Notes: a model not told the origin generated them from the letters alone. A stretch of DNA of 64,000 nucleotides from a virus (IMGVR_UViG_3300009709_000001:128001-192000), one strand, 5' to 3'; numbered from the stretch's first letter, positions 31,458-45,020 are shown. Numbers and translations are program-made.

Positions 31458-31529
31458 CAGAATGCGTTTCTTTATGGTCAAATTGGAAGTTTGATTTTCT
31501 TGATTATTTTTGCTGAATACATTCTTTAG
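31458..31529 (-). ncRNA. CAGCAA-scaffold RNA displaying a Gly(TCC) anticodon stem-loop
   Basis: TAAAGAATGTATTCAGCAA...TCAAA-CTTCCAA-TTTGA...CGCATTCTG. Confidence 0.7.
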
Positions 31530-31535
31530 AAACTC

Positions 31536-31621
31536 TGGTGGGCATGGAAGGATTCGAACCTACTCACCCCGAGGGAACGGATTTACAGTCCGCCGCCGTT
31601 CACCGACTCGACAGCATGCCC
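31536..31621 (-). tRNA. tRNA-Tyr(GTA)
   Basis: Loop CTGTAAA, long variable arm. Confidence 0.9.
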
Positions 31622-31942
31622 AGTGTTCAATATTTATAGACTTTTGCTTTCACCCCTGCGAGCTTTGCGACAGTGGCTGCTTCCTTGCATTTCTTGGCCT
31701 TGCAGTAATATTCGTACTTGTCAAGATCAAGGACAGAAAAAAGATATGTTCTGCAGTTACGGCAATGGATATCAACTGTTCTACTAGTCATCGTTTTCTT
31801 CTAGTTGTTCTAACTTTTCTGCAGCCCACTTGGCACCTGCCACAAAAATACTTTTCAATGTCTCATAATCGACATCATATACTTCCATGGAAACGTATAA
31901 GGCTGCTGCGGTGTCTAACTCTTCTTCGTCCATGATGTCTCC

Positions 31943-32017
31943 TGGTAGGAGCACGGGGAATCGAACCCTCGACCATCTGGGTAAAAGCCAGAGACGCTAC
32001 CACTACGTCATACTCCC
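31943..32017 (-). tRNA. tRNA-Lys(TTT)
   Basis: Loop CTTTTAC. Confidence 0.9.
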
Positions 32018-32142
32018 GGTGTTTGTTGAAAATATACGAAACTTTACCTTAGGCTGGTTAGTGCCTAATTATCACTGTGCGACCAGCATCATTAACCAAA
32101 TGACGAGGTACGTTTGTGCGTCGGATGTATATTTTCGAACTC

Positions 32143-32217
32143 TGGTGGGGGCACAGGGATTCGAACCCTGGACCATCGGATTAAAAGTCCGGTGCTCTAC
32201 CACTGAGCTATACCCCC
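32143..32217 (-). tRNA. tRNA-Lys(TTT)
   Basis: Loop CTTTTAA. Confidence 0.9.
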
Positions 32218-32223
32218 GAATTT

Positions 32224-32502
32224 TTACAGCTTGGAAAGACCTAAAGCAATCTTATCAGCTTCAGTCAATTTCGCAAGTGCTGCTTCTTTTGCATTCTCGG
32301 TGCAAAGAGCTTTGTATTCGTCGAATGAATCGACAATTACATATTGCAGAGAAATTTCTCTTGCATATCGCGGCCAGCTTCTCGACTCTGCTACGATTGC
32401 ATCAGCAACGGTTTTGGAACCTGCATATGCAACGTGTTCGTCGTGCATGCCGCCACCATCAGGTGCGGAAACTTCCCAGCACTTAATTTCGATTTTTCGC
32501 AT
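32224..32502 (-). CDS. hypothetical protein
   Basis: ORF from MRKIE. Confidence 0.55.
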   Translation of the reverse strand: MRKIEIKCWEVSAPDGGGMHDEHVAYAGSKTVADAIVAESRSWPRYAREISLQYVIVDSFDEYKALCTENAKEAALAKLTEADKIALGLSKL

Positions 32503-32713
32503 TTTGACGTTTCTCCAACGTATCATTTAAATCCTTGACTCCACCAGCCTGTGAACCTTCTAACCAGTGCACCAAGTTGGGAATCAAATACGATGTCAGC
32601 TTCCTGTTCAGATCGCTATCGCCTTCGGCTTCGAACACTTCTGCTTGCAAGGCCTTGGCTTGCTGCAGGGCGAGAAACAGATTATTACTAATACGGTCTA
32701 CTTTTTCTTGCAT
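32483..32713 (-). CDS. hypothetical protein
   Basis: ORF from MQEKV. Confidence 0.55.
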   Translation of the reverse strand: MQEKVDRISNNLFLALQQAKALQAEVFEAEGDSDLNRKLTSYLIPNLVHWLEGSQAGGVKDLNDTLEKRQNAKNRN

Positions 32714-32811
32714 TTTAATCTTTCGGTAAAACCATATCAAAACATACCAAATATATAAACTAGGCTTCGGGAATCCATCACCGTAGCATATAAGATACGT
32801 TTTGATATAGT

Positions 32812-33645
32812 GGATGGCTGAGATTACACCATTACCTATCAACGCTCCGAGCATTATCAGCAAACCTTGCGAGTAAGCCTTCTCTCGACATCCACTATAG
32901 CCCTTTCGGTACTATAGTCCGTTGACAGCATCGCCGTTTTAAGTCAGGCAGTAGACTTGACATCATATGCTATTCTACGCTTTCTATCCCACTAGCCTTG
33001 CGAGCTATTCATCTCCGCTAAGAGATTATGAAACTTCTTGCATAAACAGATTTCACCGTGCGAGCTACGTCCGACATGGTTAGCCTGCGCCCCATGTATT
33101 AGATGCTTTTCACATATGACCGAAGTAGTCTTTGCGTTTTTATTTGATTAAACCTATCAAGTTTGCTAATCTACTGTGATGTGCTACTTCCGTTGCTGAA
33201 TAACCTTTTGGGCTACCCAATACAACACACCACGTACCTTTTGCCTGCCGGCTACTCAGTGGTCTTTCTCGATTAATGTCATTAACTGCCAAAAACCGAT
33301 CATACTGCATACAAGCCCTAGAATGCGAGTCTCGGACAAATACACTACCCTTTCTCATACCAATTAACAAGTTTGGTATGTAGTGAAGATGGTACCACCC
33401 ACCTTTTCATCGACACGAGTTCCCCTTACGGGCTCGGCTGCCAACATTCTTTCCACTACACTTGCGTCCTTGCTACTTCACCCGGTGTTACCTCAGATAA
33501 AGCTCCCTTTCGGGAGTGAGCAGGCTTGCTTAAACGGACTATCTCTAGCGATGGTATGTAGACATTCCATCTTTGGGCGTCTCACGACGCTTACCCTTCT
33601 GATAGGCTGGGCGAACCATACCTATCAAGGAAATTAAGCTTCCCT
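32812..33645 (-). ncRNA. GOLLD-like giant ornate RNA
   Basis: About 830 nt without a credible ORF, many tetraloop hairpins, blocks GGTGTGTTGTATT and GCAAAGACTACTTCGGTC, 3' end TAATCTCAGCC; recognised from memory, ends approximate. Confidence 0.6.
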
Positions 33646-33705
33646 GAATCCTTTACATTGCCAAAAACACCTAGTGCGCTTGGCAATGTAAAGCAAATTT
33701 ACCTT

Positions 33706-33776
33706 ACATTTTTAAAGAACGTTTGTTGTTATTAACAACATGCCTCTAGTTTAACTGTTTGTTAGCGGCATGTCAA
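33706..33776 (-). promoter_or_regulatory. sigma70 promoter followed by a boxB-like hairpin and a boxA-like element
   Basis: TTGACA-17-TAAACT; TGTTGTT-AAT-AACAACA; CGTTCTTTAAAAA. Confidence 0.65.
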
Positions 33777-33782
33777 CAATTT

Positions 33783-34715
33783 TTAGTTTGGCTTTGATAT
33801 CCAGGCAGCATCGTGGCTAACCTTAGTATCATAGACCGAAAACTCAACAATCTTCTTCTCAAGTTCAAAACCAGCTGAGGCTAAGTCTTGAATAAAACTA
33901 TCGACTGTTGCGTCAAACTCGTCATACAGACCACTGTACCAACGAAGTGTCATCATCTGAACGAAGTTATCCTTGTCCAATACCTTGAACACATTCTTCG
34001 ACATATGTGCACCGTGAATTTCTGCGAGTTCATTTAAATCACTACGCCTTGCTTCCGATGTACGGACTGCAACGTGCGATTCGAAATAACAATCTTGCGG
34101 CATTAGGTCACCTTTTATCGATGGTGCTGCCGGATGCCATGGCACTGTTTCAATTTTTACTCTCACCACCTCAAACAGGTTTGCGGTAAGAAAGTTTTTA
34201 ATCCTCTGTGATTCTTCGTATGCCGAAGAATTATCGCCAAGATGAACAGACGATGTCATAACATCCTGCATCACGTTCTTGGACTGCAAATCTTGGAGAT
34301 CAAGTACAATCGGTTTAACACCGATGTGTTCACATGCATCACGGAAATCATTAATGTCATTTGTTTTCACTGTGACATGAATTTCATATGGAACAGGCTT
34401 ACCCTTTGTCTTTTCTTCCTTAGTTAGAATCTTATTCCACTTCAGAAGTTTTTCCTTGAACATTGCTTCCACTTCTTCATCAGTGAATCCCATGTGATAC
34501 GCAATCGAATAAGATACTAGAAGTGTGTCAATGACTTCTTCGAGCACTTGCTTCTTTTCGACAAAGCGGTGTCTTGTAGAACTTACATTCTCGTAAGGTG
34601 CGACAACTTTTGCAAGTTCGCCACCTTCCTCAAATAGCTTCATGACACGTTCACTAACCGTCTTTGTATCAAGGCCGGTTAGTAACTTAATATGCTCGAG
34701 TGTTGATTTTTCCAT
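33783..34715 (-). CDS. MazG-like N-terminal domain fused to an uncharacterised domain
   Basis: KLFEEGGELAK...LEEVID; YEIHVTV and YFESHV. Confidence 0.6.
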   Translation of the reverse strand: MEKSTLEHIKLLTGLDTKTVSERVMKLFEEGGELAKVVAPYENVSSTRHRFVEKKQVLEEVIDTLLVSYSIAYHMGFTDEEVEAMFKEKLLKWNKILTKEEKTKGKPVPYEIHVTVKTNDINDFRDACEHIGVKPIVLDLQDLQSKNVMQDVMTSSVHLGDNSSAYEESQRIKNFLTANLFEVVRVKIETVPWHPAAPSIKGDLMPQDCYFESHVAVRTSEARRSDLNELAEIHGAHMSKNVFKVLDKDNFVQMMTLRWYSGLYDEFDATVDSFIQDLASAGFELEKKIVEFSVYDTKVSHDAAWISKPN

Positions 34716-35074
34716 TAGGGTGAAAAGCCTTTATTTTTATTCTTCACTTTATTGTCGATATCCCATTTAATGGCTGCTCCGCTAGCGAATTTTTCACCTT
34801 TGCGAAATCTTGCACCATTAACGATAAACTCTTTCAACACTGAATCACCATTCCACCAGCCACGCTGAATATGGATATATCCTTCGGCGCCAAGTTTCTC
34901 TCTCAATGCTTTGAATTCGGGATGATCATCTGATGATATCGATGACCAATAACCCTTACCTTGTAAGACCTTGACGAGATCTTCCTCGGTTGGATTTTCC
35001 TTATCCGTGTAGCAATTCCCGGACTTACGAATAGTCACGCTTGTTAGGGATTCTGGGTTTATGGTAAAGTTCAT
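34715..35074 (-). CDS. hypothetical protein
   Basis: ORF. Confidence 0.6.
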   Translation of the reverse strand: MNFTINPESLTSVTIRKSGNCYTDKENPTEEDLVKVLQGKGYWSSISSDDHPEFKALREKLGAEGYIHIQRGWWNGDSVLKEFIVNGARFRKGEKFASGAAIKWDIDNKVKNKNKGFSP

Positions 35075-35078
35075 AATA

Positions 35079-35168
35079 TGGCGGATAGTATAGGATTTGA
35101 ACCTATGTGCCCCGAAGGACCCACTCCTTAGCAGGGAGGGACGATTAGCCGGACTCTGTCAACTATCC
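35079..35168 (-). tRNA. tRNA-Ser(GCT)
   Basis: Loop CTGCTAA, long variable arm, G73. Confidence 0.9.
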
Positions 35169-35247
35169 ATGAATTTAGCGGCAATAGGAAGCTAGGGTTC
35201 GCTTTCGGGAATCACCTAACTTGTTCCCCTATTGCCGGGCCCAACAA

Positions 35248-35568
35248 TTATACTTTGTCAGGGTATTGACTGTCAATAAAGTCAATTGCAAGATGTGGAC
35301 TTGTACCTACATCGAGCATCTTGATGTTCTTGAAGCCATTTTCTTCTGTAATGAGTGATTCGTCCGCGCGAATACCACCCTTATACTTGCCGTCACCTTT
35401 CTTGTGCATCAGATTACCTGTTGCGGGATCAATAGAACCCCATTTAGGTGTATGTGCACCTTCGATCGGTTCGACAAAATATGTCTTGCCGGTACGTTGA
35501 GAATATACGATGAAACGACCTGTCTCGTCTGTGTTCGTTAAGAACTTACTGCGAATGTCATTGCTCAT
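35248..35568 (-). CDS. hypothetical protein
   Basis: ORF. Confidence 0.65.
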   Translation of the reverse strand: MSNDIRSKFLTNTDETGRFIVYSQRTGKTYFVEPIEGAHTPKWGSIDPATGNLMHKKGDGKYKGGIRADESLITEENGFKNIKMLDVGTSPHLAIDFIDSQYPDKV

Positions 35569-35594
35569 ATAGCCCCCATGGTTAAAATGTTGTT

Positions 35595-35671
35595 TGGCAA
35601 GCCGTTGGGGACTCGAACCCCAGCCCTTCTGACTCAGAATCAGACCACACTGCCCCTTATGCTACCGGCCA
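35595..35671 (-). tRNA. tRNA-Gln(CTG)
   Basis: Loop TTCTGAG, GCCA. Confidence 0.85.
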
Positions 35672-35675
35672 CTTG

Positions 35676-36098
35676 TTAATTTAATTTCTGAGATTTCACG
35701 ATACGACGCATTTCATTCTCAATATCGCGTTTCTTCTCAGATTCTCTCTTATCGTATTCCTTCTTACCCTTTGCAAGTCCAATCTTCAATTTGAACTTAC
35801 CACGCAATGGATAAATCTTCAACGGTATAAGAGTTAGTCCGCGTTCTTGAGTTCTACCCATAACGCGGTTAATTTCTTTCTTGTTCAAAAGCAGTTTTCG
35901 TGTGCGAAGTTGATCATTATCAGCACTTCCCATCGAAGCACCGACTAGATATACTTCACCGTTACGGATGACACAATGTGTGCCGGCAATCGAACACACG
36001 TCCGATGCAATGGCCTTTGCTTCCCATCCTTGCAAAACCATTCCGCTCTCAAATTCTTCAAGAATTTCGTAATCGTGATAAGCTTTCTTATTTTGCAT
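35676..36098 (-). CDS. smpB: SsrA-binding protein SmpB
   Basis: NKKAYHDY, ESGMVLQGWEAK, RTRKLLL and GLAKGKKEYDKR. Confidence 0.95.
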   Translation of the reverse strand: MQNKKAYHDYEILEEFESGMVLQGWEAKAIASDVCSIAGTHCVIRNGEVYLVGASMGSADNDQLRTRKLLLNKKEINRVMGRTQERGLTLIPLKIYPLRGKFKLKIGLAKGKKEYDKRESEKKRDIENEMRRIVKSQKLN

Positions 36099-36116
36099 TT
36101 CAAAACTCGCTATGTT

Positions 36117-36191
36117 TGGCAAGGGTGGTGAGAATCGAACTCACTAACCGTGGGTCAAAGCCACGTATGCATACCATTGCATATCACCCCA
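36117..36191 (-). tRNA. tRNA-Gln(TTG)
   Basis: Loop CTTTGAC. Confidence 0.85.
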
Positions 36192-36319
36192 ATTGTAGAT
36201 CTAAACGTATGGCGATCCCCGTGTCACAGGCCGATGCTTTCGCATCGGCCCGGAAGGATTGATTACCTTCATCAGTTCTTACAAACAGAGTTGACGACTC
36301 TCTTCGTACATGCTTATTC

Positions 36320-36394
36320 TGGACCCCCTGCAAGGAATCAAACCTTGACCTGAACGTTCGTAGCGTTCTGTTCTATTCATTGAACTACAGGGAG
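36320..36394 (-). tRNA. tRNA-Arg(ACG)
   Basis: Loop CTACGAA. Confidence 0.85.
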
Positions 36395-36843
36395 TTATTC
36401 TTAATCAATATTTTGGATTTTTCTACCATCTCATCTGTGATTGCAATTTTACCGCCATGAATTTTTCTATGACAATTAGAGCAAACCACAATACATTTTT
36501 CAACTTCTTTTAGAATAGTATCTAACGGATATTTTGCAATCATCCCCGAAATATCATATTCTTTACTTTCCGGTTCAAGATGATGAAATTCAATACACTT
36601 TATGTAATCCTCGCCACATACTATGCATGATAGTGTCGATTTCCATCTTAACGCCGATTCTTTATAATTGCGATTTCTTTCACCGACTGCACTAACAATT
36701 TTTTCTCTGTGTAAGCGATAAGAATTTTTAGATGTCTCTCGCCTACAATCATTGCATTGTCCGTGCAGTTGATTTTTAGACCTAGATCTCCATGCATATT
36801 GGTCTAGGTCTTTAGTACACCTACATTTCGAACATACTTTCAT
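36385..36843 (-). CDS. HNH endonuclease; stop inside tRNA-Arg
   Basis: CIVCG...EFHH...KCIVVCSNCHRKIH. Confidence 0.8.
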   Translation of the reverse strand: MKVCSKCRCTKDLDQYAWRSRSKNQLHGQCNDCRRETSKNSYRLHREKIVSAVGERNRNYKESALRWKSTLSCIVCGEDYIKCIEFHHLEPESKEYDISGMIAKYPLDTILKEVEKCIVVCSNCHRKIHGGKIAITDEMVEKSKILIKNNSL

Positions 36844-36893
36844 ATTTATTCCTGCTACGAAGTATATTATATTCGTAGCAAAAATACAGTATT

Positions 36894-36969
36894 TGGTGGA
36901 GCATAGTGGAGTCGAACCACTCTAACCTACCTTATGAGAGTAGTGCATCAGCCGCTCTGCCAATGCTCC
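36894..36969 (-). tRNA. tRNA-Met or Ile2 (CAT)
   Basis: Loop CTCATAA. Confidence 0.85.
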
Positions 36970-36987
36970 ATAAATTTTATTCTGATG

Positions 36988-37479
36988 CTAGATTAAACCT
37001 TGCACCTTAGAAAAGTCCGGAATAAACCAATCCGGCATATCTCTATTTTTCCATCCAGCAATATGTTGCTTATGGACGTTGTAATAATTTCTGTAAGATT
37101 GAATGGGATCATCAACCTTAACATCATCAGGCATTGCCAGGCGGAATGGAGTAATACCCTTGCTTTCAATATTCGGATAAGGTAGATTACGAATCACATC
37201 GTAAGCTTTATGATTTACCGAATGCTCATACCTATACATCCATTCGTAATTGAGCGCTTCAGCAAGATCTCTCAACCAAAGCCAATTATCGAGTGACTCA
37301 CGTATCCAAATTGCACTTGGACGATTAACGTGTGTCAGTTTATAGCCTGCATCAATGCCACTAACTCGAACTGCACTACTCAATAGTTGTGCATATTCGG
37401 TAACCATCTTAACCACATGGCGATCAACGTGATATTTAGCGTTGGTCTCGTGATCAGAATCGAGATAAAAAATGTTCAT
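36988..37479 (-). CDS. pyrimidine-dimer DNA glycosylase (DenV-like family)
   Basis: MNIFYLD...DRHVVKM..EYAQLLS...LAMPD...YRNYY. Confidence 0.7.
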   Translation of the reverse strand: MNIFYLDSDHETNAKYHVDRHVVKMVTEYAQLLSSAVRVSGIDAGYKLTHVNRPSAIWIRESLDNWLWLRDLAEALNYEWMYRYEHSVNHKAYDVIRNLPYPNIESKGITPFRLAMPDDVKVDDPIQSYRNYYNVHKQHIAGWKNRDMPDWFIPDFSKVQGLI

Positions 37480-37622
37480 GTGCAATTATAACTTACAGAC
37501 TATTTTTTTGCAATTGAATTTGATTGTACCGCCCTAATGCAATATACCGAAGTAGTAACATATACGTTGACCATAACCTACGGCAGTATCTTAGTTATGA
37601 TGCACTATTTGCAATCGAAACT

Positions 37623-37696
37623 TGGTGCGGGCTAAGGGAATCGAACCCTTGATCTCTCGTTGGCAACGAAAAGTTTTACCATTAAACTAAGCACGC
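37623..37696 (-). tRNA. tRNA-Gly(GCC)
   Basis: Loop TTGCCAA. Confidence 0.85.
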
Positions 37697-37795
37697 GAAT
37701 ATGAATTAAGATAGTTGAAATAGCAAGGACGGAATCGAACCGCAACTACACCATGGCTTGATTATACCCGCTTCAATCAGGCGCTATCTTAAACT

Positions 37796-37886: not shown

Positions 37887-37891
37887 ATATT

Positions 37892-38189: not shown

Positions 38190-38195
38190 ATAATA

Positions 38196-38270: not shown

Positions 38271-38274
38271 GAAT

Positions 38275-38745
38275 TCAAAAAGTAGGAATAAACCAATCCG
38301 GCATATTCCTGTTTGTCCATTTTGCAAGATGTTGCTTGTGAACATTGTAATACTTTCGGTATGCCTGTACAGGATCTTCGTCCCTTACATCATCTGGCAT
38401 AGCCAATCTAAACGGTGTAATACCTTTAGATTCAATATTCGGTACAGGTAGAGACTGTATCACATTAAAAGCCTTATGATTTTCGCTGTGATCATATCTA
38501 TACATATATTCGTAGTTGAGTTCTGTTGCCAGCTCTCTCAACCACAACCAATTATCTTGTGACTCCCTTGTCCAAATTGCACAAGGATGATTCTGATGCG
38601 TAATTTTATAGCCTGCATCAACGCCTGTCAATCTCACCGCTGTACTCAAAAGTTGAGCATATTCGGTAACCATTTTGACCACATGCCTGTCGACATGGGC
38701 CTTGGCGCATTCGTGTAAATCGTTATCTAGATAAAAGATATTCAT
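38275..38745 (-). CDS. second DenV-like glycosylase paralog
   Basis: Highly similar to 36988..37479. Confidence 0.7.
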   Translation of the reverse strand: MNIFYLDNDLHECAKAHVDRHVVKMVTEYAQLLSTAVRLTGVDAGYKITHQNHPCAIWTRESQDNWLWLRELATELNYEYMYRYDHSENHKAFNVIQSLPVPNIESKGITPFRLAMPDDVRDEDPVQAYRKYYNVHKQHLAKWTNRNMPDWFIPTF

Positions 38746-38757
38746 TTTTCTTATTAT

Positions 38758-38835
38758 TGGTGCCCCGGGAGGGATTCGAACCCACACTGTACGGTTTCTA
38801 AAACCGGTGCCTCCTACCTATTGCGCTACCTGGGC
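38758..38835 (-). tRNA. tRNA-Leu(TAG), short variable loop
   Basis: Loop TTTAGAA. Confidence 0.8.
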
Positions 38836-38836
38836 A

Positions 38837-39280
38837 TTATTTCTTGACTGCAACCATAATTACGGCACAGCCTGATGTATTGTCTTCAAGGACCATGGAA
38901 TGAATTTTCTTATGGTTAAATTCATAAACGTGATTTAGTGATACTACTGCTTCTTCATCTTCGGCAGTAATGATGCTTGTACCCTTCGGTAGTACCACGG
39001 GTATCACAAAAGTGCGCGGTTCAAACACATTGGGATCTAATAAGTCCGTATGTGGCTCAGCACCCTTGCACACGCTAAAATATACAAAATCCAGGCGGTT
39101 TTTGTCAACTCCCACAACGGTTGCGATCCGATCCATCAAAAGTGAATCGGCGCTGCTGACAGCATGGACCTGGAATTTCTTCGGTGTATTTGTTTTGTAA
39201 CTCTGGAGCTTAATGCTTTCGGCATTAATCGCAATTTGTTCCGGGACATCAATAATACCGTGACAAACAATCTTATCCAT
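38837..39280 (-). CDS. 2OG-Fe(II) oxygenase/cupin-like protein
   Basis: PHTD and IHS. Confidence 0.55.
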   Translation of the reverse strand: MDKIVCHGIIDVPEQIAINAESIKLQSYKTNTPKKFQVHAVSSADSLLMDRIATVVGVDKNRLDFVYFSVCKGAEPHTDLLDPNVFEPRTFVIPVVLPKGTSIITAEDEEAVVSLNHVYEFNHKKIHSMVLEDNTSGCAVIMVAVKK

Positions 39281-39295
39281 AGATTACTTTCATTT

Positions 39296-39372
39296 TGGAG
39301 ACTCTGGTGAGAATCGAACTCACTCTTTGAACTGTTTTGCAGACAGTTGCCTTCCCAATCGACCACAGAGCC
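39296..39372 (-). tRNA. tRNA-Cys(GCA)
   Basis: Loop CTGCAAA, U73. Confidence 0.85.
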
Positions 39373-39383
39373 ATTGAATTTGA

Positions 39384-39457
39384 TGGGTTGAACCGGGGAA
39401 TCGAACCCTCGCCTACTGTTTCACAGACAGTCTTGCTACCACTACACTAGGAACAAC
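39384..39457 (-). tRNA. tRNA-His(GTG)
   Basis: Loop CTGTGAA, C73. Confidence 0.85.
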
Positions 39458-39471
39458 ATCGAAATTAAAAA

Positions 39472-39592
39472 CAGGTTCGCAATTTATATCCTACCATTAG
39501 ACGACAGTAGCGACCAACTCTACCGCTGGGATTCGAACCCAGATCTTCTTTTTTACAGAAAGATTATTATTTATTGCTGAAACGAACCTAAA
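39472..39592 (-). ncRNA. CAGCAA-scaffold RNA containing a complete circularly permuted tRNA (anticodon GTA)
   Basis: AGGTTCGTTTCAGCAA...TCTTT-CTGTAAA-AAAGA AGAT CTGGG-TTCGAAT-CCCAG CGGTAG-loop-CTACTG TCGTCTAATGGTAGGAT...CGAACCTG. Confidence 0.75.
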
Positions 39593-39604
39593 GTCGAAAT
39601 AAGT

Positions 39605-39711
39605 CAGGATGGGTGACTGATGGCCGGGAGTCGAACCCTATGTCACTGGCCCCAATGGCCTGGCCCGCAAAGTTTTGGCTGCGTGAATTGCTTGCTGCAA
39701 TCATCCTTTAG
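39605..39711 (-). ncRNA. CAGCAA-scaffold RNA with a T-loop hairpin
   Basis: TAAAGGATGATTGCAGCAA...GGG-TTCGACT-CCC...CATCCTG. Confidence 0.65.
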
Positions 39712-39716
39712 AAATT

Positions 39717-39793
39717 TGGTTCCCATGGTCGGATTCGAACCGACACTGAACAGTGTTTGAAACTGCTGACTCTACCGATTGGCCTACATGGGC
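39717..39793 (-). tRNA. tRNA-Leu(CAA), short variable loop
   Basis: Loop TTCAAAC. Confidence 0.8.
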
Positions 39794-39802
39794 ATCGAAT
39801 AC

Positions 39803-40006
39803 TTACTTGGCTGGTGCATCCGGAATGTTATCGCAAACACCAGTCTGAGTGCATCTATAATCGACACATTCTCTCAACTTTGGATCGGCCTGGCACTTCT
39901 TATCAAATTCGGCCTTTTCGACCTGAGCTGGCGTTGGTTCGCCGCAAGCTGTTAACCCTGCAATAAAACCAAGTGATAGAAGAACTGTAAAAATTACCTT
40001 TGTCAT
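39803..40006 (-). CDS. small lipoprotein
   Basis: Lipobox LTAC, Cys-rich. Confidence 0.6.
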   Translation of the reverse strand: MTKVIFTVLLSLGFIAGLTACGEPTPAQVEKAEFDKKCQADPKLRECVDYRCTQTGVCDNIPDAPAK

Positions 40007-40092
40007 AATTATCTCCGTTGTGTAGTTTGTCTATTGGACAAACTATTTATGATGCTTTTCTTACTATTTTGAAAAATAGTAAAATCTAATAT

Positions 40093-40168
40093 TGGCCGGC
40101 TAGGAACGACTCGAACGCTCAACCTTTGGTTTTGGAGACCACTGCGCTGCCAATTGCGCTACTAACCG
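40093..40168 (-). tRNA. tRNA-Trp(CCA) with 4-bp anticodon stem
   Basis: GTGGT-CTCCAAA-ACCAA, G27:A43 mismatch. Confidence 0.85.
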
Positions 40169-40176
40169 AAATTATA

Positions 40177-40253
40177 GGTGCCGAGACTGGACTTAAAGAT
40201 TACAGAAAGGGCCAGTCCGTCCGGCGGTTGCTGAAGTGCAGTAACCTTTCTTA
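40177..40253 (-). ncRNA. scaffold RNA variant with possible 3' pseudoknot
   Basis: TAAGAAAGGTTACTGCA...CCTTTCTG; inner GCCG..GACTGG can pair with downstream CCAGTC-TCGGC. Confidence 0.5.
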
Positions 40254-40261
40254 CTAAATTA

Positions 40262-40338
40262 TGGCAGGGCGGGAGAGATTCGAACTCTCAACGTGCAATT
40301 TTGGAGACTGCTGTTTTACCAATTGAAACTACCGACCT
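40262..40338 (-). tRNA. tRNA-Trp(CCA) with U11-A24
   Basis: D stem GTTT/AAAC, loop CTCCAAA. Confidence 0.85.
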
Positions 40339-40347
40339 ATCGAAATT

Positions 40348-40423
40348 TGGCTCCGTGTGAACGATTCGAACGCTCCTCACCTGGTTAACAGCCAGGGGTA
40401 CTCACCAAGAATACGAACACGGA
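40348..40423 (-). tRNA. tRNA-Asn(GTT)
   Basis: Loop CTGTTAA. Confidence 0.85.
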
Positions 40424-40437
40424 ATTATTTTATATTA

Positions 40438-40516
40438 TGGAGCGGGCAGGGAGAATCGAACTCCGCGAGCTACGGTGTGGAAGACCGTTGTGCGCCCTTT
40501 GCACTAGTCAACCCGC
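40438..40516 (-). tRNA. tRNA-Gly(TCC)
   Basis: Loop CTTCCAC, U73. Confidence 0.8.
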
Positions 40517-40913
40517 CTTTAATTAATGCACCTCTTCCTCGGCCCTTATTCTTAGAGCCGTAGAATTCGGTTTGTGTATGGCAATTTGGACATAGAAGAG
40601 TTAAATTATCTTCGTTATTATTCCGGCTATTACCGTCAATATGTTCCAATTGTAATGTCAGGGATTTACCATTCCAGGTATTGCCTTGTCTACATGACTG
40701 GCAAGTGTCATTAAACTTTTCAAGAATATATCGCCTAATAAACGAACTAGTCTGTGTCTCACCCTTTAGGCCATTTTCTAATCCGTTTTTCCAACGATCT
40801 ATATATTCATTATATTGATGTGTATGTTGGCACAGATGCCCACAGAATTTATTCTTCTTGTTGGAGGCTTTCTTTACACCAATTCCACAACAAAGGCAAA
40901 CATAAATAGACAT
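40470..40913 (-). CDS. HNH endonuclease reading into tRNA-Gly
   Basis: LQLEHIDGNSRNNNEDNLTLLCPNCH. Confidence 0.85.
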   Translation of the reverse strand: MSIYVCLCCGIGVKKASNKKNKFCGHLCQHTHQYNEYIDRWKNGLENGLKGETQTSSFIRRYILEKFNDTCQSCRQGNTWNGKSLTLQLEHIDGNSRNNNEDNLTLLCPNCHTQTEFYGSKNKGRGRGALIKGGLTSAKGAQRSSTP

Positions 40914-41088
40914 AACGCGATCTCCTGTTATGATTATTTATGATCGCGTGGTTATTCGTGCCACGCATTTATGAATCGGCGTCTGACTTCCGATACTTAA
41001 AGATAGCACCGGCATTTCATCCGGTTTGCATGATCAAGGCCTGGCTATCTATGTTATGTTCTTGCGGGGGCCGTAGCCCCCGGCTTGT

Positions 41089-42120
41089 TTAGACCGTTGC
41101 AGCGGACCAGATCATCAGGTTCGTACCTTCGGTCAGCTTGCGGTTGACGGAAGTCGACTGGACGAAGATGTCGTACTGGCCATGTGCACCAGGAGCAACC
41201 TTGCAGTCACCCACATGCGGGAGGCCGAGCATGTCACGAGCAGAGAAACCACTGTAGACAGAACCGGACTTCTTGTCACGGATTGCGATCTGCTTGTAGT
41301 CCTGGACCGTTTCGGTCTTGGCCAGCTGATAGAAAGCGCAACCCTTCGTGAACGTCACACCTTGTGCTTGCACGAAATCGCGAATTTGCACGCCGTCGTT
41401 CACAGCGTCGACGCGATACACGTCAACTTCCTGCGAAATGTCCACCAGTGCAGCCTTGACTTCTGCCACCGAAACCTTGCTCAGGTCGGTGTAGAACTTG
41501 TCAGTAGAGCCAACACCTGCGGAACGTGCAGCATAGAAGCCCTTGAACGCAGCCTTGGTAGACGCAGTCGAAGCAGCCATGCCGCGCTGGGTTTGCTCCC
41601 ATTCCTGGATGTTGCCTGCGGGGATACCGTAGCGCACCAGTGTGGCTGCATCACCCTTCGGGACACGGAACACGAATGTCCAACGGTCGGTGGCTTGCAG
41701 TTGCTTGATCATTGCGCCGATCTGCGGACCGGAATACTTCACGCTGGCGTTCTCGCCACCGTCGGTAGTCACAAAGACCAGGAACGAAACTTCGGGATCA
41801 GCACCGTCCGGTGCAGCCTGCAGTTGCTCGATCAGGGAGCCAACAGCGTCGAACAGCGGCGTACCGCGGCCTTCTGCTGTGTAATCAGCCTCGGCAATGG
41901 GGGCCAGGGCGATGATCGAAGAATTCGAAACCACAGTACGAACATCGCTGGTGCGACCGTAACCGAGTTCAACAACCGACACGATAGTGTCGATGCCGTA
42001 TGCCACGGCTTCTTCCTTGATAGCTGCGATGCTGTCGTTGTAATCACGTGCGGCGTGACGAGCAATACCGCTCATCGAGCCGGAGTGATCTCGGGCAAAG
42101 CCGAAGTAATTCTTCTTCAT
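41089..42120 (-). CDS. von Willebrand factor A domain protein
   Basis: DHSGSM (MIDAS), GTPLFDA and TDGGEN; own sigma70 promoter at about 42166-42194. Confidence 0.8.
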   Translation of the reverse strand: MKKNYFGFARDHSGSMSGIARHAARDYNDSIAAIKEEAVAYGIDTIVSVVELGYGRTSDVRTVVSNSSIIALAPIAEADYTAEGRGTPLFDAVGSLIEQLQAAPDGADPEVSFLVFVTTDGGENASVKYSGPQIGAMIKQLQATDRWTFVFRVPKGDAATLVRYGIPAGNIQEWEQTQRGMAASTASTKAAFKGFYAARSAGVGSTDKFYTDLSKVSVAEVKAALVDISQEVDVYRVDAVNDGVQIRDFVQAQGVTFTKGCAFYQLAKTETVQDYKQIAIRDKKSGSVYSGFSARDMLGLPHVGDCKVAPGAHGQYDIFVQSTSVNRKLTEGTNLMIWSAATV

Positions 42121-42218
42121 AAATGCCTTTCTGTGTGTACGTCACAATTAACGTTTACAGGACTAACTATATAAGTATGTCAAATTTTTGTCAACTGATT
42201 TTTATCAATTGATTTTTA

Positions 42219-42340
42219 TGGTTCCGCCCCAGGGAATCGAACCCCGTCTACTTCCTTATCATGGAATTTGAATTTATTGCTGAACGTATCCTTGGCAGGA
42301 TCACCTCGTTTAAGCATGCTACCGTTACATCAAAGCGGAA
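42219..42340 (-). tRNA. tRNA(GAT)-like gene interrupted by a 47-nt CAGCAA-scaffold insert
   Basis: TCCGCTT-TGATGTAACGGTAGCATGCTT[insert 42265-42311]CC-ATGATAA-GGAAG...T arm...GGGCGGA-ACCA. Confidence 0.65.
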
Positions 42341-42511
42341 TTGTTGGTGCCAGAATTAGATATACCGATAGCGATCGTCTTTCCAGCATAGAAAATGGAG
42401 CAAGATACGTGATATAATCTAGTGATTCGTACCCGGCACTGAATGGCGCCACGTCTAATCCAACGTATACGGCTATAAGACCAGTTAGTTACGCAGGGAC
42501 ACGGCATTGAT

Positions 42512-42587
42512 TGGTGGGTTCGCCCAGCATCGAACTGGGATCTCGCTGCTTAAGAGGCAGGACTCTAGCCAATTGAGTTACAAACCC
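42512..42587 (-). tRNA. tRNA-Lys(CTT)
   Basis: Loop CTCTTAA. Confidence 0.9.
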
Positions 42588-43429
42588 GTAACTTGTGATT
42601 TTGTTTCTATTCCTAATGCGGCAAATTGTGCCCTTATCTCGGTATTCACCATCGAATAATACTTTTTGGTATTGATTAAATGGCGGAGAAGCATGTGTCC
42701 GTCAATCTCTGGCGGTGTTTCATGATCCTCGATAGAAACGTTTGCGTAATGTTTCAACGCATTTGCATTGTTTCGGAACAGTAAATCAGTTCCAATTATG
42801 TCTGTCGACCAATGCATATTCAATTGCACTGATGGATTCTGGACATAATCATCTAGAAAATCTATAACATTGAAGTAAGACTTCATGTGTCCCACATTAT
42901 CATGGGCATAGATACAATGCTTTCTTGATAGCCAGTTCGTAAACTGACTAACATCAAATTCGTGTTCTCCACCAATTACCTTCAAATAAGGTGTAGTTAG
43001 GTTCAGAGAATGATAGGGTACATCAGCAGATGTAAGGATTGCAGGAATAGATCCGCCCGAATCAGCGAATACAACAGTTTTCTTTGTTGTACCATTGGTA
43101 TATAACTTCTCGTTCAGTATGTTTGCAATACCGAAGAAGGAATCACATACACCCATAATTCCGAGATAATTTGCAATGTAGACACCATGGTCTCTATTTG
43201 CATCTCTAATTGAAACTACGTTTACATGCTGACCTAGTTTATTGAAAAAGTGCTTCTTCCAAAAAACAAGAGTTCTTGCAATGCTCGAAGTAGTTGGGCC
43301 ACCTAGGCCATTAAACTGAATAAAAGTGACAGGCGATCTATCGCTAAAGTCAAATCCTATTCCATTTTCATGAATAAAAACTTGATCTGTTGATCTTCCG
43401 TAATTAATAGTTTCCGATGTATATGACAT
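42578..43429 (-). CDS. alpha/beta-hydrolase-like protein; stop inside tRNA-Lys
   Basis: ADSGG nucleophile-elbow-like motif and distal GH. Confidence 0.5.
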   Translation of the reverse strand: MSYTSETINYGRSTDQVFIHENGIGFDFSDRSPVTFIQFNGLGGPTTSSIARTLVFWKKHFFNKLGQHVNVVSIRDANRDHGVYIANYLGIMGVCDSFFGIANILNEKLYTNGTTKKTVVFADSGGSIPAILTSADVPYHSLNLTTPYLKVIGGEHEFDVSQFTNWLSRKHCIYAHDNVGHMKSYFNVIDFLDDYVQNPSVQLNMHWSTDIIGTDLLFRNNANALKHYANVSIEDHETPPEIDGHMLLRHLINTKKYYSMVNTEIRAQFAALGIETKSQVTGL

Positions 43430-43436
43430 CGACTAT

Positions 43437-43727
43437 TTAGTACGGAAATTCATACCCGTATTCAGAAAGGTATCTTCGTGCCTTTCTCATAACTTCCTCA
43501 CTAGGCTGAACTTTCTTAAATCCAGTCCTTAGAATATAGAAATCTTCGCAATCGTTGTCAAATAACTCTATGTAATATAAATCGCCGCTGGTTAAACCTG
43601 CATGCGAATTACATACAAATAATGCCTTCTTGGCATTCGATGCGATGCGTACAACTTCTTCGCATTCGCCCGAAAGCGACCAGTCATATCGATAATTATC
43701 AGATACGTCGATAAAAAAAGGTTTCAT
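43437..43727 (-). CDS. hypothetical protein
   Basis: ORF. Confidence 0.5.
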   Translation of the reverse strand: MKPFFIDVSDNYRYDWSLSGECEEVVRIASNAKKALFVCNSHAGLTSGDLYYIELFDNDCEDFYILRTGFKKVQPSEEVMRKARRYLSEYGYEFPY

Positions 43728-43731
43728 ATCT

Positions 43732-43806
43732 TGGTACCCCTGACGGGATTCGAACCCGCCTGAGTAGGTTGAAAGCCTACGGACCTCACCAGAAGTCGAC
43801 AGGGGC
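43732..43806 (-). tRNA. tRNA-Glu(TTC)
   Basis: Loop CTTTCAA. Confidence 0.85.
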
Positions 43807-43812
43807 AGTGTT

Positions 43813-43898
43813 TGGTACCCTGTGGGGGATTCGAACCCCAGCCCTTTTGGGCATCACCTTGAAAGGGTGAGGACCGTTGCCAGCAGTCGACACAGGAT
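43813..43898 (-). tRNA. tRNA-Glu(TTC) with long variable arm
   Basis: Loop CTTTCAA, variable arm GCCC-AAAA-GGGC. Confidence 0.8.
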
Positions 43899-43899
43899 A

Positions 43900-43973
43900 T
43901 GGTAGCTCCAACAAGAATCGAACTTGTGAGACCCGGTTATCGGCCGAGGATTATACCACTTAATTATGGAGCC
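43900..43973 (-). tRNA. tRNA-Ile(GAT)
   Basis: Loop CCGATAA. Confidence 0.8.
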
Positions 43974-44185
43974 ATTGATTGTTCGTATTGAATTAATTCC
44001 TGAATTATTTCGTCTCTATCAAAACTTCTTATGAAGTATGCATCTTCTGGGCTTATAGTACCCGGTTGATAATATCCGAATTTAATCAGAAAATCCATAG
44101 GAAGATGCCTAATCCTAAAATAGATATTATCTGTTCTAGGGATGTTATATTTCAGAGAGACATATAATTCGTCAATTTCATTCAT
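43964..44185 (-). CDS. hypothetical protein; stop inside tRNA-Ile
   Basis: Ends ...QSMAP*, TAA at tRNA nt 8-10. Confidence 0.5.
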   Translation of the reverse strand: MNEIDELYVSLKYNIPRTDNIYFRIRHLPMDFLIKFGYYQPGTISPEDAYFIRSFDRDEIIQELIQYEQSMAP

Positions 44186-44191
44186 AATATT

Positions 44192-44266
44192 TGGTTGCCA
44201 CGGTCAGGATCGAACTGACGACTCTTGCCTTATCAAGACACTACTCTACCACTGAGTTACGCGGCA
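44192..44266 (-). tRNA. tRNA-Ile(GAT)
   Basis: Loop TTGATAA. Confidence 0.85.
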
Positions 44267-44370
44267 ATAAATTCAAACGTGTTGCAGCTCATCTGCAATA
44301 CGGACAGCTATTGTAGTCACTGTCAAAACTAGATTGATAAAAATAAGTTCCATTTTATTTCTTTGTTAGT

Positions 44371-44449
44371 TGGTCGGGGATGCAGGATTCGAACCTGCGA
44401 CCTCTCACTTCCAAGGCGAGCCGTCTGACCTGACTGACAATAATCCCCG
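44371..44449 (-). tRNA. tRNA-Pro(TGG)
   Basis: Loop CTTGGAA. Confidence 0.85.
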
Positions 44450-44512
44450 ATATTAGATAGTGCTGCCGGCTTCCATAACCGGTGGAATCTCATTCCCTAT
44501 ATCTAACGTTTT

Positions 44513-44588
44513 TGGTGCCGGCTAGAGGAATCGAACCCCTGACCTTCTGACTACAAAACAGTTGCTCTACCTACTGAGCTAAACCGGC
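44513..44588 (-). tRNA. tRNA-Thr(TGT)
   Basis: Loop TTTGTAG. Confidence 0.85.
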
Positions 44589-44598
44589 ATAATAAATT

Positions 44599-44657
44599 CA
44601 GAGTACGCTTTTTTCACCAATTGAAAGTAGTTTAAATTTGCTGAATGTACTCTTTAG
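44599..44657 (-). ncRNA. CAGCAA-scaffold RNA with a Glu(TTC)-like loop
   Basis: TAAAGAGTACATTCAGCAA...ACTA-CTTTCAAT-TGGT...GTACTCTG. Confidence 0.65.
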
Positions 44658-44663
44658 AAAGCA

Positions 44664-44738
44664 TGGCGCCTCGTAGGGGAATCGAACCCCTTTGATCCGT
44701 TAGACAGACGGGCATAATAACCAGTATATGAACGAGGC
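44664..44738 (-). tRNA. tRNA-Asp(GTC)
   Basis: Loop CTGTCTA, G73. Confidence 0.85.
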
Positions 44739-44745
44739 AAAGATT

Positions 44746-44943
44746 TTAGTAATCGCTATAGATAATGTACCAGGATTCCTCTAATGGAGAAATTTCAATA
44801 CGAATAAGCTGAGATCGCATTACACCAGAATAGCGAAAGATGTAATCTTTCTCGTATTGTGGCATGTATCCAGAAGCAGCTTCAATACTAAAGTTCTGTG
44901 CTTCTTTTCTAAATTCAGCTGACCAAGGTACTTTTCGTTCCAT
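44746..44943 (-). CDS. hypothetical protein
   Basis: ORF. Confidence 0.45.
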   Translation of the reverse strand: MERKVPWSAEFRKEAQNFSIEAASGYMPQYEKDYIFRYSGVMRSQLIRIEISPLEESWYIIYSDY

Positions 44944-44962
44944 AGCTTTATTTTGATTTAAT

Positions 44963-45020
44963 CAGTGTTCTTATTTTCAATTACAAGTTGAATTTTTAAT
45001 TTGCTGAACGAACACTTTAG
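44963..45020 (-). ncRNA. CAGCAA-scaffold RNA displaying a Thr(TGT) anticodon stem-loop
   Basis: TAAAGTGTTCGTTCAGCAA...TTCAA-CTTGTAA-TTGAA...GAACACTG. Confidence 0.7.

What the first reader, a model, noticed from the sequence alone, without database searches (positions are those of the whole stretch)
31458..45020. Minimal RNAs displaying isolated anticodon stem-loops (Gly TCC, Thr TGT, Glu TTC)
Seen: 58-72-nt scaffold RNAs whose only cargo is a hairpin with a C32-U33-anticodon-A37-A38 loop. These are TCAAA-CTTCCAA-TTTGA (31458-31529), TTCAA-CTTGTAA-TTGAA (44963-45020) and an imperfect CTTTCAA loop (44599-44657). All three have U34. Inference: sacrificial substrates for anticodon nucleases or U34-modifying enzymes, or spare loops for tRNA repair.
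Basis: partly seen in the sequence, partly recalled or inferred. Interest (0 to 1): 0.72.

Follow-up and report, generated by a model that had tools for sequence, protein, structure and literature searches.

The report
Mini Y-RNA-like RNAs in phage tRNA array
The three small RNAs are the smallest members of a family that shares one conserved "handle" and probably partners with a Ro60-like ring protein of this giant phage; two of the three show an imitation tRNA anticodon arm, but what they do is untested.

Summary
The three elements are real. They lie on the minus (tRNA) strand of a 385-kb jumbo phage. They are not isolated oddities. They share a frame, UUUCUAA-[AG+5 nt P1]-N-UUCAGCAA...[P1']-G-AUUU, whose P1 stem pairs in all 24 distinct sequences, with compensatory changes at 5 of 7 pairs. 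The window holds nine members, with inserts from a bare hairpin to YrlA-like and permuted tRNA-like bodies. Across 80 phage loci the frame sits next to, and on the strand of, a DUF2828/DUF7788 gene (135 frames versus 9 opposite). That gene's predicted fold matches only Ro60/Rsr over its full length (Z 8.7-11.9). A frame also lies in that gene's mRNA leader.

Best reading: Y-RNA-like partner RNAs of a divergent phage Ro60. Binding is inferred, not shown.

The anticodon-loop reading holds for 31458-31529 and 44963-45020. Twenty-one distinct relatives keep CU-NNN-AA on covarying stems, and the same hairpin takes the anticodon-arm position in larger members. It fails for 44599-44657, which forms UUUCA-AUUGG-UGAAA. 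U34 is not general. The decoy idea is untested.

I found no Rfam family or paper for this handle. Earlier notes of this scan report the same pairing on other DNA.

The parts
44954..45025 (-). E3, a mini framed RNA. It starts 1 nt after the ...CCA end of the tRNA mimic at 45024-45283. 5' tail UUCUAA 45017-45022. P1 45010-45016 pairs with 44964-44970. Junction motif UUCAGCAA 45001-45008. Hairpin UUCAA-CUUGUAA-UUGAA 44976-44992. 3' G at 44963.
   Evidence: R2 75.4 bits, E 6e-14. Sequence read. P1 covariation.
44590..44662 (-). E2, a mini framed RNA between tRNA-Asp (ends 44664) and tRNA-Thr (starts 44588). Tail UUUCUAA 44654-44660. P1 44647-44653 pairs with 44600-44606. UUCAGCAA 44638-44645.
   Evidence: R2 69.9 bits. 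tRNAs. The alternative hairpin is kept in E2, L055 and L221.
31449..31534 (-). E1, a mini framed RNA 3 nt after tRNA-Tyr (CCA 31536-31538). Tail UUUCUAA 31526-31532. P1 31519-31525 pairs with 31459-31465. UUCAGCAA 31510-31517. Hairpin UCAAA-CUUCCAA-UUUGA 31478-31494. 3' G at 31458.
   Evidence: R2 65.4 bits. Sequence read.
30423..30529 (-). Framed RNA with a three-hairpin insert that includes a T-arm (GCAGG-UUCGAUC-CCUGU). It starts at the 3' end of the RNase P RNA-like gene.
   Evidence: R2 44.5 bits. The homologue G3_d shows T-arm covariation. RNase P hit.
39596..39716 (-). Framed RNA just after tRNA-Leu(CAA). The insert carries a T-arm (GGG-UUCGACU-CCC) and further hairpins.
   Evidence: R2 31.0 bits. 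The homologue G3_f shows compensatory changes, including AG/CU to GG/CC at the base of P1.
39463..39594 (-). Framed RNA in tandem with the previous one. The insert is CUUU-CUGUAAA-AAAG (an anticodon-type loop), then T-arm UGGG-UUCGAAU-CCCA and further tRNA-like parts.
   Evidence: R2 28.9 bits, E 0.0012. Sequence read.
600..721 (-). Framed RNA with a third cargo type (GAACCUUUCUGG...GGGGAAAGCAAAAACUCGCC). It has its own sigma-70-type promoter, TTGACA-17-TAAAAT, at 754->726.
   Evidence: R2 29.3 bits. Promoter matches 11 of 12. The same cargo occurs in G002, G005 and G007 next to the Ro-like gene.
420..553 (-). Framed RNA whose insert is a YrlA-type tRNA-like domain: T-arm, acceptor stem capped by UUCG, then D-arm. 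With 600-721 it forms a tandem pair upstream of the Ro60-like gene, which lies just outside the window at genome 125897-127306 (minus strand).
   Evidence: Rfam YrlA 41.9 bits, E 4e-8, model positions 24-84 only. R2 28.3 bits. Synteny.
1113..1343 (-). Frame enclosing a structured insert of about 195 nt with GNRA-type loops. Own promoter TTGACG-18-TATAAT at 1383->1354. This is the weakest member by model score.
   Evidence: Frame found by the positional rule. R2 only 14.9 bits, E 1.5. Promoter matches 11 of 12.

Best explanation
The three RNAs are the minimal members of a modular family of small non-coding RNAs built like Y RNAs.

Each RNA has a constant handle. The handle is a 7-bp stem joining the 5' and 3' ends, flanked by ...UAA on the 5' side, N-U-W-CAGCAA just inside the stem, and G-W-UUU on the 3' side. 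It most likely binds the phage's own Ro60-like ring protein (DUF2828 + DUF7788, 469 aa, encoded 0.7 kb outside the window).

The variable interior is a tRNA-derived module. It ranges from a whole or permuted tRNA-like body, through a YrlA-type elbow, down to a bare anticodon-arm imitation (E1, E3) or another small hairpin (E2).

The minis are co-transcribed with the tRNA array. They are presumably released by the enzymes that trim the flanking tRNAs. Other members have their own promoters. One copy of the handle sits in the Ro-like mRNA leader, running into the ribosome-binding site, which suggests the protein represses its own translation.

Shown: the family, the stem covariation, the tRNA-like modules, the fold-level Ro60 similarity, and the tight strand-specific linkage of frames to the gene.

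Inferred: that the protein binds the handle, that the RNAs accumulate as discrete species, and what the anticodon-arm module is for. My guess is that it links the Ro-like ring to, or competes for, a factor that recognises anticodon arms, within a tRNA supply and repair toolkit that includes RtcB.
For: Family and structure:
- P1 is 100% paired in 24 distinct sequences, with 5 of 7 pairs compensatory. AG/CU at the stem base changes to GG/CC in G3_f.
- In 160 distinct frames, positions the finder did not force are conserved: junction U 92%, stem position 5 U 82%.

Cargo:
- The Rfam YrlA model hits the insert at window 553->420 at 41.9 bits, E 4e-8, and similar inserts in distant loci.
- Normal-order and permuted tRNA-like bodies occur inside the same frame.

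Protein:
- Pfam DUF2828 1.6e-26 plus DUF7788 9e-51; PHROG 850 'RNA-binding protein' 7e-154.
- Foldseek top 11 hits are all Ro60/Rsr/TROVE over the full length, probability 1.00, best E 4.9e-6.
- VIA-align top 10 are all Ro60, Z 8.7-11.9 over 224-361 aligned residues (eight of them 332-361); the next unrelated chain scores 7.2.
- Depositors call the mycobacteriophage homologues 'Ro-like RNA binding protein'.

Linkage:
- The order promoter, two framed RNAs, Ro-like gene holds in G000, G002 and G007; G005 has one framed RNA there.
- All 108 model hits in 80 Ro-like loci lie on the gene's strand.
- The positional finder gives 135 versus 9 frames, with 11 in shuffles. Sixty lie within 500 nt upstream, 28 just downstream, and none inside the gene.
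- At least 21 of 80 loci have a frame ending 40 nt or less before the start codon. In G000 it runs into GAGGAG.
- Five large phage contigs (1.0 Mb) without the gene have no frames.
- Cultured Escherichia phage EC6 has the gene followed by a tRNA array with at least 4 framed RNAs between tRNAs.

Precedent: Thermus phage phiLo has two Y-RNA-like genes upstream of its Ro60, and the protein binds them (PMC12135203).
Against: - No binding, expression or processing data exist. The handle-protein link is genomic association only.
- E1-E3 themselves lie 31-45 kb from the Ro-like gene. Their assignment rests on sharing the handle.
- The handle lacks the GNCGAA/CGAA motif that defines known bacterial and phage Y RNAs (PMC4201824, PMC12135203).
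- No member reaches Rfam's YrlA gathering score.
- The Pfam TROVE model does not hit the protein. Sequence and profile searches of the PDB do not find Ro60.
- The structure model is of middling confidence (pLDDT 70, TM 0.40-0.45).
- The inner hairpins of the minis are weak.
- The single-stranded tails also fit RNase E-type sites (own knowledge), so a processing role is not excluded.
Confidence: 0.72

Rival explanations
1. The elements are tRNA-array processing or insulating cassettes. The structured spacer with AU-rich single-stranded tails marks cleavage sites for host RNase E or RNase P and keeps neighbouring tRNAs from misfolding. The released RNA has no function of its own.
For: Placement is flush. 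The frame starts 0-3 nt after the encoded CCA and ends 8-12 nt before the next tRNA. One also follows the RNase P RNA-like gene. The tails CCA-AG|UUUC and GA|UUUA fit the RN|WUU preference of RNase E (own knowledge).
Against: Three window members have their own near-consensus promoters and no upstream tRNA. Frames occur in tandem arrays and in the mRNA leader beside the Ro-like gene, with no tRNA between them. The internal CAGCAA motif and the elaborate tRNA-like cargoes are not needed for a spacer.
Confidence: 0.1
2. They are free-standing decoys or sponges for anticodon nucleases or anticodon-loop modification enzymes, acting without any Ro-like protein.
For: CU-NNN-AA heptaloops are kept on covarying stems in 21 distinct members. 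The triplets UUU, GUA and GUU are anticodons of tRNAs known to be hit by anticodon nucleases such as PrrC and colicin E5 (own knowledge). The phage carries more than 40 tRNAs and RtcB.
Against: This leaves the conserved handle and its linkage to the Ro-like gene unexplained. More than half of the small members, E2 included, have other loops. Many members have no anticodon arm at all. U34 is not conserved.
Confidence: 0.08
3. They are a self-cleaving ribozyme (theta/HDV-like or a new class) that trims tRNA 3' trailers.
For: They sit next to tRNAs in a phage, as theta ribozymes do (PMC10879173). About 14 conserved unpaired nucleotides surround one stem, with a variable peripheral domain.
Against: No ribozyme family appears even at E<=10 in Rfam. 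The nested double pseudoknot is absent. The first nucleotide after the tRNA is not a G1 cleavage site within +/-1 nt. Members occur with their own promoters or inside an mRNA leader. The candidate UCAG/CUGA pairing is not kept in variants.
Confidence: 0.04
4. They are minimal 'armless' tRNAs that decode: P1 serves as a 7-bp acceptor stem and the hairpin as the anticodon arm.
For: A 7-bp terminal stem plus a 5-bp/7-nt hairpin in E1 and E3 resembles armless mitochondrial tRNAs (own knowledge).
Against: There is no CCA after P1, although every real tRNA examined here encodes CCA. The 5' tail and the CAGCAA motif are conserved. The same frame hosts non-tRNA cargo. ARAGORN and the Rfam tRNA model find nothing.
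Confidence: 0.02

Closest known systems
Bacterial and phage Ro60 (Rsr) with Y RNAs YrlA/YrlB (Chen et al. 2014, PMC4201824; Rfam RF02553)
   Same: The RNA has a terminal stem joining the 5' and 3' ends, a conserved motif on the 5' side just inside the stem, and a variable interior that mimics tRNA (T-arm, capped acceptor, D-arm in window 553->420). The genes lie beside a ring-plus-vWA protein gene. Several RNAs occur per genome. RtcB is in the same genome.
   Different: The motif is (U/A)CAGCAA, not GNCGAA. No member reaches the Rfam threshold. The protein is DUF2828/DUF7788 and resembles Ro60 only at fold level. Up to nine or more RNA genes are scattered through the tRNA array. Some cargoes are reduced to a bare anticodon-arm-like hairpin, which has not been described for Y RNAs.
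Thermus phage phiLo phiRo60 with Yrl1 and Yrl2 (PMC12135203; PDB 9KOP, 9L5Y)
   Same: A phage-encoded Ro60 with two tandem Y-RNA-like genes just upstream. It is the best structural match of the protein here.
   Different: phiLo is a canonical TROVE-type protein and its RNAs carry the CGAA motif. Structure-based identity is about 14-18%. phiLo has no dispersed copies in a tRNA array and no anticodon-arm modules.
Class I RNAs of dictyostelid amoebae (Rfam RF01414; PMC7919456)
   Same: A 42-65 nt RNA with a short covarying stem joining the ends, a conserved motif ending in ...ACAGCAA right after the 5' stem strand, and a variable remainder. The Rfam model aligns over its full length to many phage minis at 24-34 bits.
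   Different: All scores are below the gathering score of 41.5. Class I RNAs are eukaryotic, have a DUSE promoter, and their known direct binder is the RRM protein Rnp1A. No common descent was shown here.
Theta (minimal HDV-like) ribozymes beside phage tRNAs (PMC10879173)
   Same: A small structured RNA placed directly 3' of phage tRNA genes.
   Different: Theta ribozymes have a nested double pseudoknot and a G1 cleavage site within +/-1 nt of the tRNA end. Neither is present here.
tRNA anticodon stem-loop
   Same: E1, E3 and 19 distinct relatives have a 4-5 bp stem and a 7-nt loop with C32-U33 and A37-A38 equivalents fixed and the middle triplet variable. In larger members the hairpin holds the anticodon-arm position.
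   Different: The stems are almost pure A-U and are not copies of the phage's own tRNA anticodon arms. The hairpin is not part of a decoding tRNA.

Membership tests
Y RNA (YrlA/YrlB type) | Stem formed by the 5' and 3' ends of the RNA | tested here: met
   P1 is 100% paired in 24 distinct sequences, with 5 of 7 pairs compensatory.
Y RNA (YrlA/YrlB type) | Conserved Ro-binding motif GNCGAAN0-1G / CGAA next to the 5' stem strand (PMC4201824, PMC12135203) | tested here: not met
   The same position carries N-U-W-CAGCAA in 160 frames. No CGAA is present.
Y RNA (YrlA/YrlB type) | Gene lies beside a Ro60 orthologue | tested here: inconclusive
   This is met for the family: 135 versus 9 frames by strand, and 55 of 80 loci have one within 700 nt. 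The window pair 721->420 is adjacent to the gene. E1-E3 themselves lie 31-45 kb away in the tRNA array.
Y RNA (YrlA/YrlB type) | tRNA-like domain and the Rfam RF02553 gathering score (69 bits) | tested here: not met
   The best score is 41.9 bits, for the tRNA-like domain only, at window 450-510. E1-E3 have no such domain.
Y RNA (YrlA/YrlB type) | Physical binding to the Ro60 protein | not testable with these tools
   This needs EMSA or RIP.
Ro60 / TROVE protein | Pfam TROVE (PF05731) match | tested here: not met
   No match anywhere in the genome. The protein matches DUF2828 and DUF7788 instead.
Ro60 / TROVE protein | Helical-repeat ring followed by a vWA domain | tested here: met
   Foldseek top 11 and VIA-align top 10 hits are all Ro60/Rsr over both domains, Z up to 11.9. 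The model has pLDDT 70.
Theta / HDV-like ribozyme | Nested double pseudoknot with a G1 cleavage site within +/-1 nt of the tRNA 3' end | tested here: not met
   The frame starts with (N0-3)UUUCUAA and has a single closing stem. No HDV-type Rfam hit appears at E<=10.
Dictyostelium Class I RNA (RF01414) | Short terminal stem plus an 11-nt motif next to the 5' stem strand; Rfam gathering score 41.5 | tested here: not met
   The architecture and the ...CAGCAA core are shared, but the best score is 33.7 bits; E2 scores 26.0 and E3 24.1. There is no DUSE promoter context.
tRNA anticodon arm | Stem of about 5 bp with a 7-nt loop, U at loop position 2 and purine at position 6 | tested here: met
   Met for E1 (CUUCCAA) and E3 (CUUGUAA) and 19 distinct relatives. 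Not met for E2 (AUUGG pentaloop).
Canonical tRNA | Cloverleaf with a 3' CCA or discriminator end; detection by ARAGORN or Rfam RF00005 | tested here: not met
   Neither tool calls E1-E3. No CCA follows P1.

The most novel reading that the evidence does not exclude
The phage uses its Ro60-like ring with a library of Y-type RNAs that each show a different piece of tRNA. The anticodon-arm-only minis (UUU, GUA, UGU, GAA, GUU, UCC) would act as adaptors or uncleavable decoys. They would bring the ring to, or block, host factors that recognise anticodon loops, such as anticodon nucleases, and so protect the phage's tRNA supply. A further step would be that the near-identical stem-plus-ACAGCAA design of dictyostelid Class I RNAs reflects the same kind of ribonucleoprotein in eukaryotes.
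Probability: 0.12. Interest if true: 0.85.

Novelty: new variant of a known kind. Interest (0 to 1): 0.66.

Why it matters
Ro60/Y-RNA particles are known from animals, some bacteria and a few phages, but what the tRNA-like part of a Y RNA is for is still open.

Here a very widespread phage protein family turns out to have the Ro60 fold. It has more than 7,600 homologues in metagenomes and occurs in 711 cultured-phage records, including Felix O1-type coliphages. It travels with its own RNA family, which has an undescribed handle and a graded series of tRNA-derived cargoes, down to a lone anticodon arm.

That series amounts to a natural dissection of which tRNA part matters. It also ties the system to phage tRNA arrays and RtcB. 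Because the same layout exists in cultured E. coli phages, the function question becomes testable.

It would also explain many unannotated spacers in phage tRNA clusters.

Tried and rejected
- GOLLD link: the motif match inside GOLLD (33193-33208) falls in a hairpin whose consensus lacks the motif. It is chance.
- Ribozymes: hammerhead, HDV/theta, hatchet, pistol and twister were considered by eye and with a permissive Rfam scan. Nothing came up.
- Alternative pairings: UCAG with CUGA, and loop CUU with tail AAG, are not kept in variants.
- TROVE: the Pfam TROVE search of the genome was negative.
- PDB by sequence: single-sequence and profile searches found only designed repeat proteins.
- DUF2828 literature: plant papers only.
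- Megablast of the window against cultured phages: no match.
- First viral pattern scan: 112 loci, of which 4 were real. Tighter patterns were needed.
- My first automatic P1 caller mis-anchored several members. I replaced it with a positional rule.
- The strict 7/7-pair rule undercounts leader frames that have 6-bp stems.
- Endonuclease_NS downstream of the Ro-like gene is kept in only 5 of 80 loci, so it is not a core partner.
- I looked for a relation between the loop triplet and the neighbouring tRNAs and saw none.


Full report
**Setting**

The window is part of a single 385,394-bp virus contig with direct terminal repeats. On its minus strand it carries 44 tRNA genes and a permuted tmRNA called by ARAGORN, and a GOLLD RNA. 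The three elements of the finding lie on that same strand. E1 (31534->31449) starts 3 nt after tRNA-Tyr. E2 (44662->44590) fills the gap between tRNA-Asp and tRNA-Thr.

**The observation**

More telling is what the three share outside the hairpin:
- UUUCUAA on the 5' side;
- a 7-nt stem strand that begins AG;
- one nucleotide, then UUCAGCAA;
- an A-rich linker, the hairpin, another A-rich linker;
- the complementary stem strand, ending CU;
- G, then AU-rich sequence.

The stem differs between copies but always pairs (AGAAUGU/GCAUUCU, AGAGUAC/GUACUCU, AGUGUUC/GAACACU). The pattern TAAAG-N6-12-CAGCAA occurs 6 times in the window against 0.43 expected.

**A family, not three oddities**

Pattern scans of viral contigs were mostly chance hits. 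Filtering for a closing stem left true relatives. A covariance model built from seven sequences and rebuilt from 31 finds nine members in the window, all on the minus strand. It finds 4-7 in each of several related phage records. In 24 distinct sequences the closing stem is paired in every cell, with compensatory changes at 5 of 7 pairs. Even the AG/CU base of the stem becomes GG/CC in one relative.

Rfam 15 holds no family for this RNA. A permissive scan gave only sub-threshold hits to the Dictyostelium Class I RNA model.

**The interior varies**

The same frame encloses several kinds of insert:
- small hairpins (E1-E3);
- T-arm-bearing inserts (30529->30423 and 39716->39596);
- a tRNA-like body with an anticodon-type loop CUGUAAA followed by a T-arm (39594->39463);
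- a distinct motif (721->600);
- a structured insert of about 195 nt (1343->1113);
- at 553->420, a T-arm, a UUCG-capped acceptor stem and a D-arm. The Rfam YrlA (bacterial Y RNA) model matches this at 41.9 bits, E 4e-8, but only over its tRNA-like domain.

Three members (1343, 721 and, with it, 553) follow near-consensus sigma-70-type promoters. So the frame is not just a tRNA spacer. One member starts at the 3' end of a full-length, sub-threshold RNase P RNA match.

**The protein partner**

The tandem pair 721->420 points at a 469-aa gene just outside the window (genome 127306->125897).
- Pfam finds DUF2828 plus DUF7788, with a faint vWA signal. PHROGs calls it an RNA-binding protein.
- The Pfam TROVE model and sequence searches of the PDB find nothing.
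- An AlphaFold model (pLDDT 70) matches Ro60 proteins and nothing else over its full length. Foldseek's top 11 hits are phage phiLo Ro60, Xenopus and human Ro60 and Deinococcus Rsr, at probability 1.00.
- An independent aligner gives Z 8.7-11.9 over 224-361 residues (eight of the ten at 332-361) for the same ten entries, against 7.2 for the next, single-domain match.
- Depositors already label the mycobacteriophage homologues 'Ro-like RNA binding protein'.

**Linkage**

The order promoter, two framed RNAs, Ro-like gene is kept in G000, G002 and G007. G005 has one framed RNA just upstream of the gene.

I fetched 80 viral loci that encode relatives of the protein: 23 at 74% identity or more, and 57 at about 46-63%.
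- All 108 model matches at E<=1 lie on the gene's strand.
- A simple positional finder gives 135 frames on that strand, 9 on the other, and 11 in shuffled sequence.
- Sixty frames lie within 500 nt upstream, 28 just downstream, and none inside the gene.
- Arrays of up to six occur (L284).
- In at least 21 loci a frame ends within 40 nt of the start codon. In this genome a promoter is followed by UUUUAA-AGAGUUA-AAACAGCAU...UAAUUCU-GAGGAG...AUG, so the handle abuts the ribosome-binding site. That is the layout of an autoregulatory operator.
- Five large phage contigs without the gene (1.0 Mb) have no frame.
- In cultured Escherichia phage EC6 the gene is followed by a 23-tRNA array with at least four framed RNAs between tRNAs.

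**The loop claim**

Among 58 small-insert members, 21 distinct ones carry a 4-5 bp stem and a CU-NNN-AA heptaloop: CUUUUAA 7, CUGUAAA 5, CUUGUAA 4, CUGAAAA 3, CUGUUAA 1 and CUUCCAA 1. That is 21 of the 28 seven-nucleotide loops, on at least eight different stem sequences. Some were re-assigned by eye where the automatic hairpin caller picked an alternative.

The same hairpin sits after a D-arm in L325/L318. It sits before a T-arm, capped acceptor and D-arm in L319, and between D- and T-arms in L284. So it is a true anticodon-arm equivalent.

There are limits. E2 and its two homologues keep a perfect UUUCA-AUUGG-UGAAA hairpin instead. Other classes exist (ACCAUUAUC, UUGG loops). G34-type triplets are common. 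The A-U hairpins are weak by energy alone.

**Interpretation**

The best reading is a Y-RNA-like system. The conserved handle is the probable binding site of a divergent phage Ro60. The interior is a tRNA-derived module of graded completeness, and the finding's RNAs are its smallest form.

Known Y RNAs differ in the motif (GNCGAA/CGAA; PMC4201824, PMC12135203), and no member passes Rfam's YrlA threshold. I therefore file this as working like a Y RNA, not as a member of YrlA.

A processing-cassette role, a ribozyme, free decoys and armless tRNAs are weighed under the rival explanations. Each explains less. What the anticodon-arm module does is unknown. A link to tRNA damage and repair is plausible (RtcB; jumbo-phage review PMC7824862) but untested.

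**Resemblance to Class I RNAs**

The Rfam Class I model aligns over its full length to many phage minis at 24-34 bits, below the gathering score of 41.5. The published definition is a short stem joining the ends, a motif next to the 5' stem strand, and a variable rest (PMC7919456). That matches the architecture here. It is a lead only.

**Prior notes**

After I had reached this reading, the scan's own notes showed that other agents reported the same DUF2828 plus CAGCAA-handle pairing on many other genomes. I found no paper or Rfam family that describes it.

Noticed in passing
window 30529-30864 (-): Full-length match to bacterial RNase P RNA class A (model positions 1-367) at 86 bits, E 2e-25, below Rfam's gathering score of 100. 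This looks like a phage-encoded RNase P RNA inside the tRNA array, directly followed by a framed RNA.
   Followed up: partly
window 1113-1343 (-), promoter 1354-1383: A frame encloses a structured insert of about 195 nt with several GNRA-type loops, under its own TTGACG-18-TATAAT promoter. The cargo was not identified by Rfam.
   Followed up: partly
window 31400-31446 (-): Between E1 and tRNA-Cys lies a stretch of about 45 nt (GGCGUAUAUCGUAGCUCC...UUGCUACGCC) with terminal complementarity. Its nature is unknown.
   Followed up: no
window 40194-40260 (-): Between two tRNA-Trp genes there is a weak match to the frame model (13.2 bits, E 3.5) with ...AAAGGUUACUGCACUUCAGCAA.... It may be a degenerate member.
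   Followed up: no
L245 3889-4713 (+), genome about 127388-128212, overlapping window 1-212: A 274-aa ORF on the opposite strand (DUF7487; weak PHROG hits to homing/HNH endonucleases) sits between the Y-like RNA pair and the Ro-like gene in this genome. The gap is only 134-360 nt in G002, G005 and G007, so it looks like a mobile insertion.
   Followed up: partly
L245 1170-1970 (-), genome 124669-125469, outside the window: A DNA/RNA non-specific endonuclease gene (Endonuclease_NS, 6e-37) lies just downstream of the Ro-like gene. It is kept there in only 5 of 80 related loci.
   Followed up: yes
window 16387-16463, 21048-21415, 32815-33233 (all -): A CUA-anticodon (amber-reading) tRNA, a permuted tmRNA and a GOLLD RNA share the array with the framed RNAs.
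   Followed up: no
L326 (Escherichia phage EC6, NC_027369.1 about 11840-16270): ARAGORN finds 23 tRNA genes downstream of gp023, but none is listed among the record's annotated features for that stretch. The framed RNAs between them are unannotated too.
   Followed up: partly
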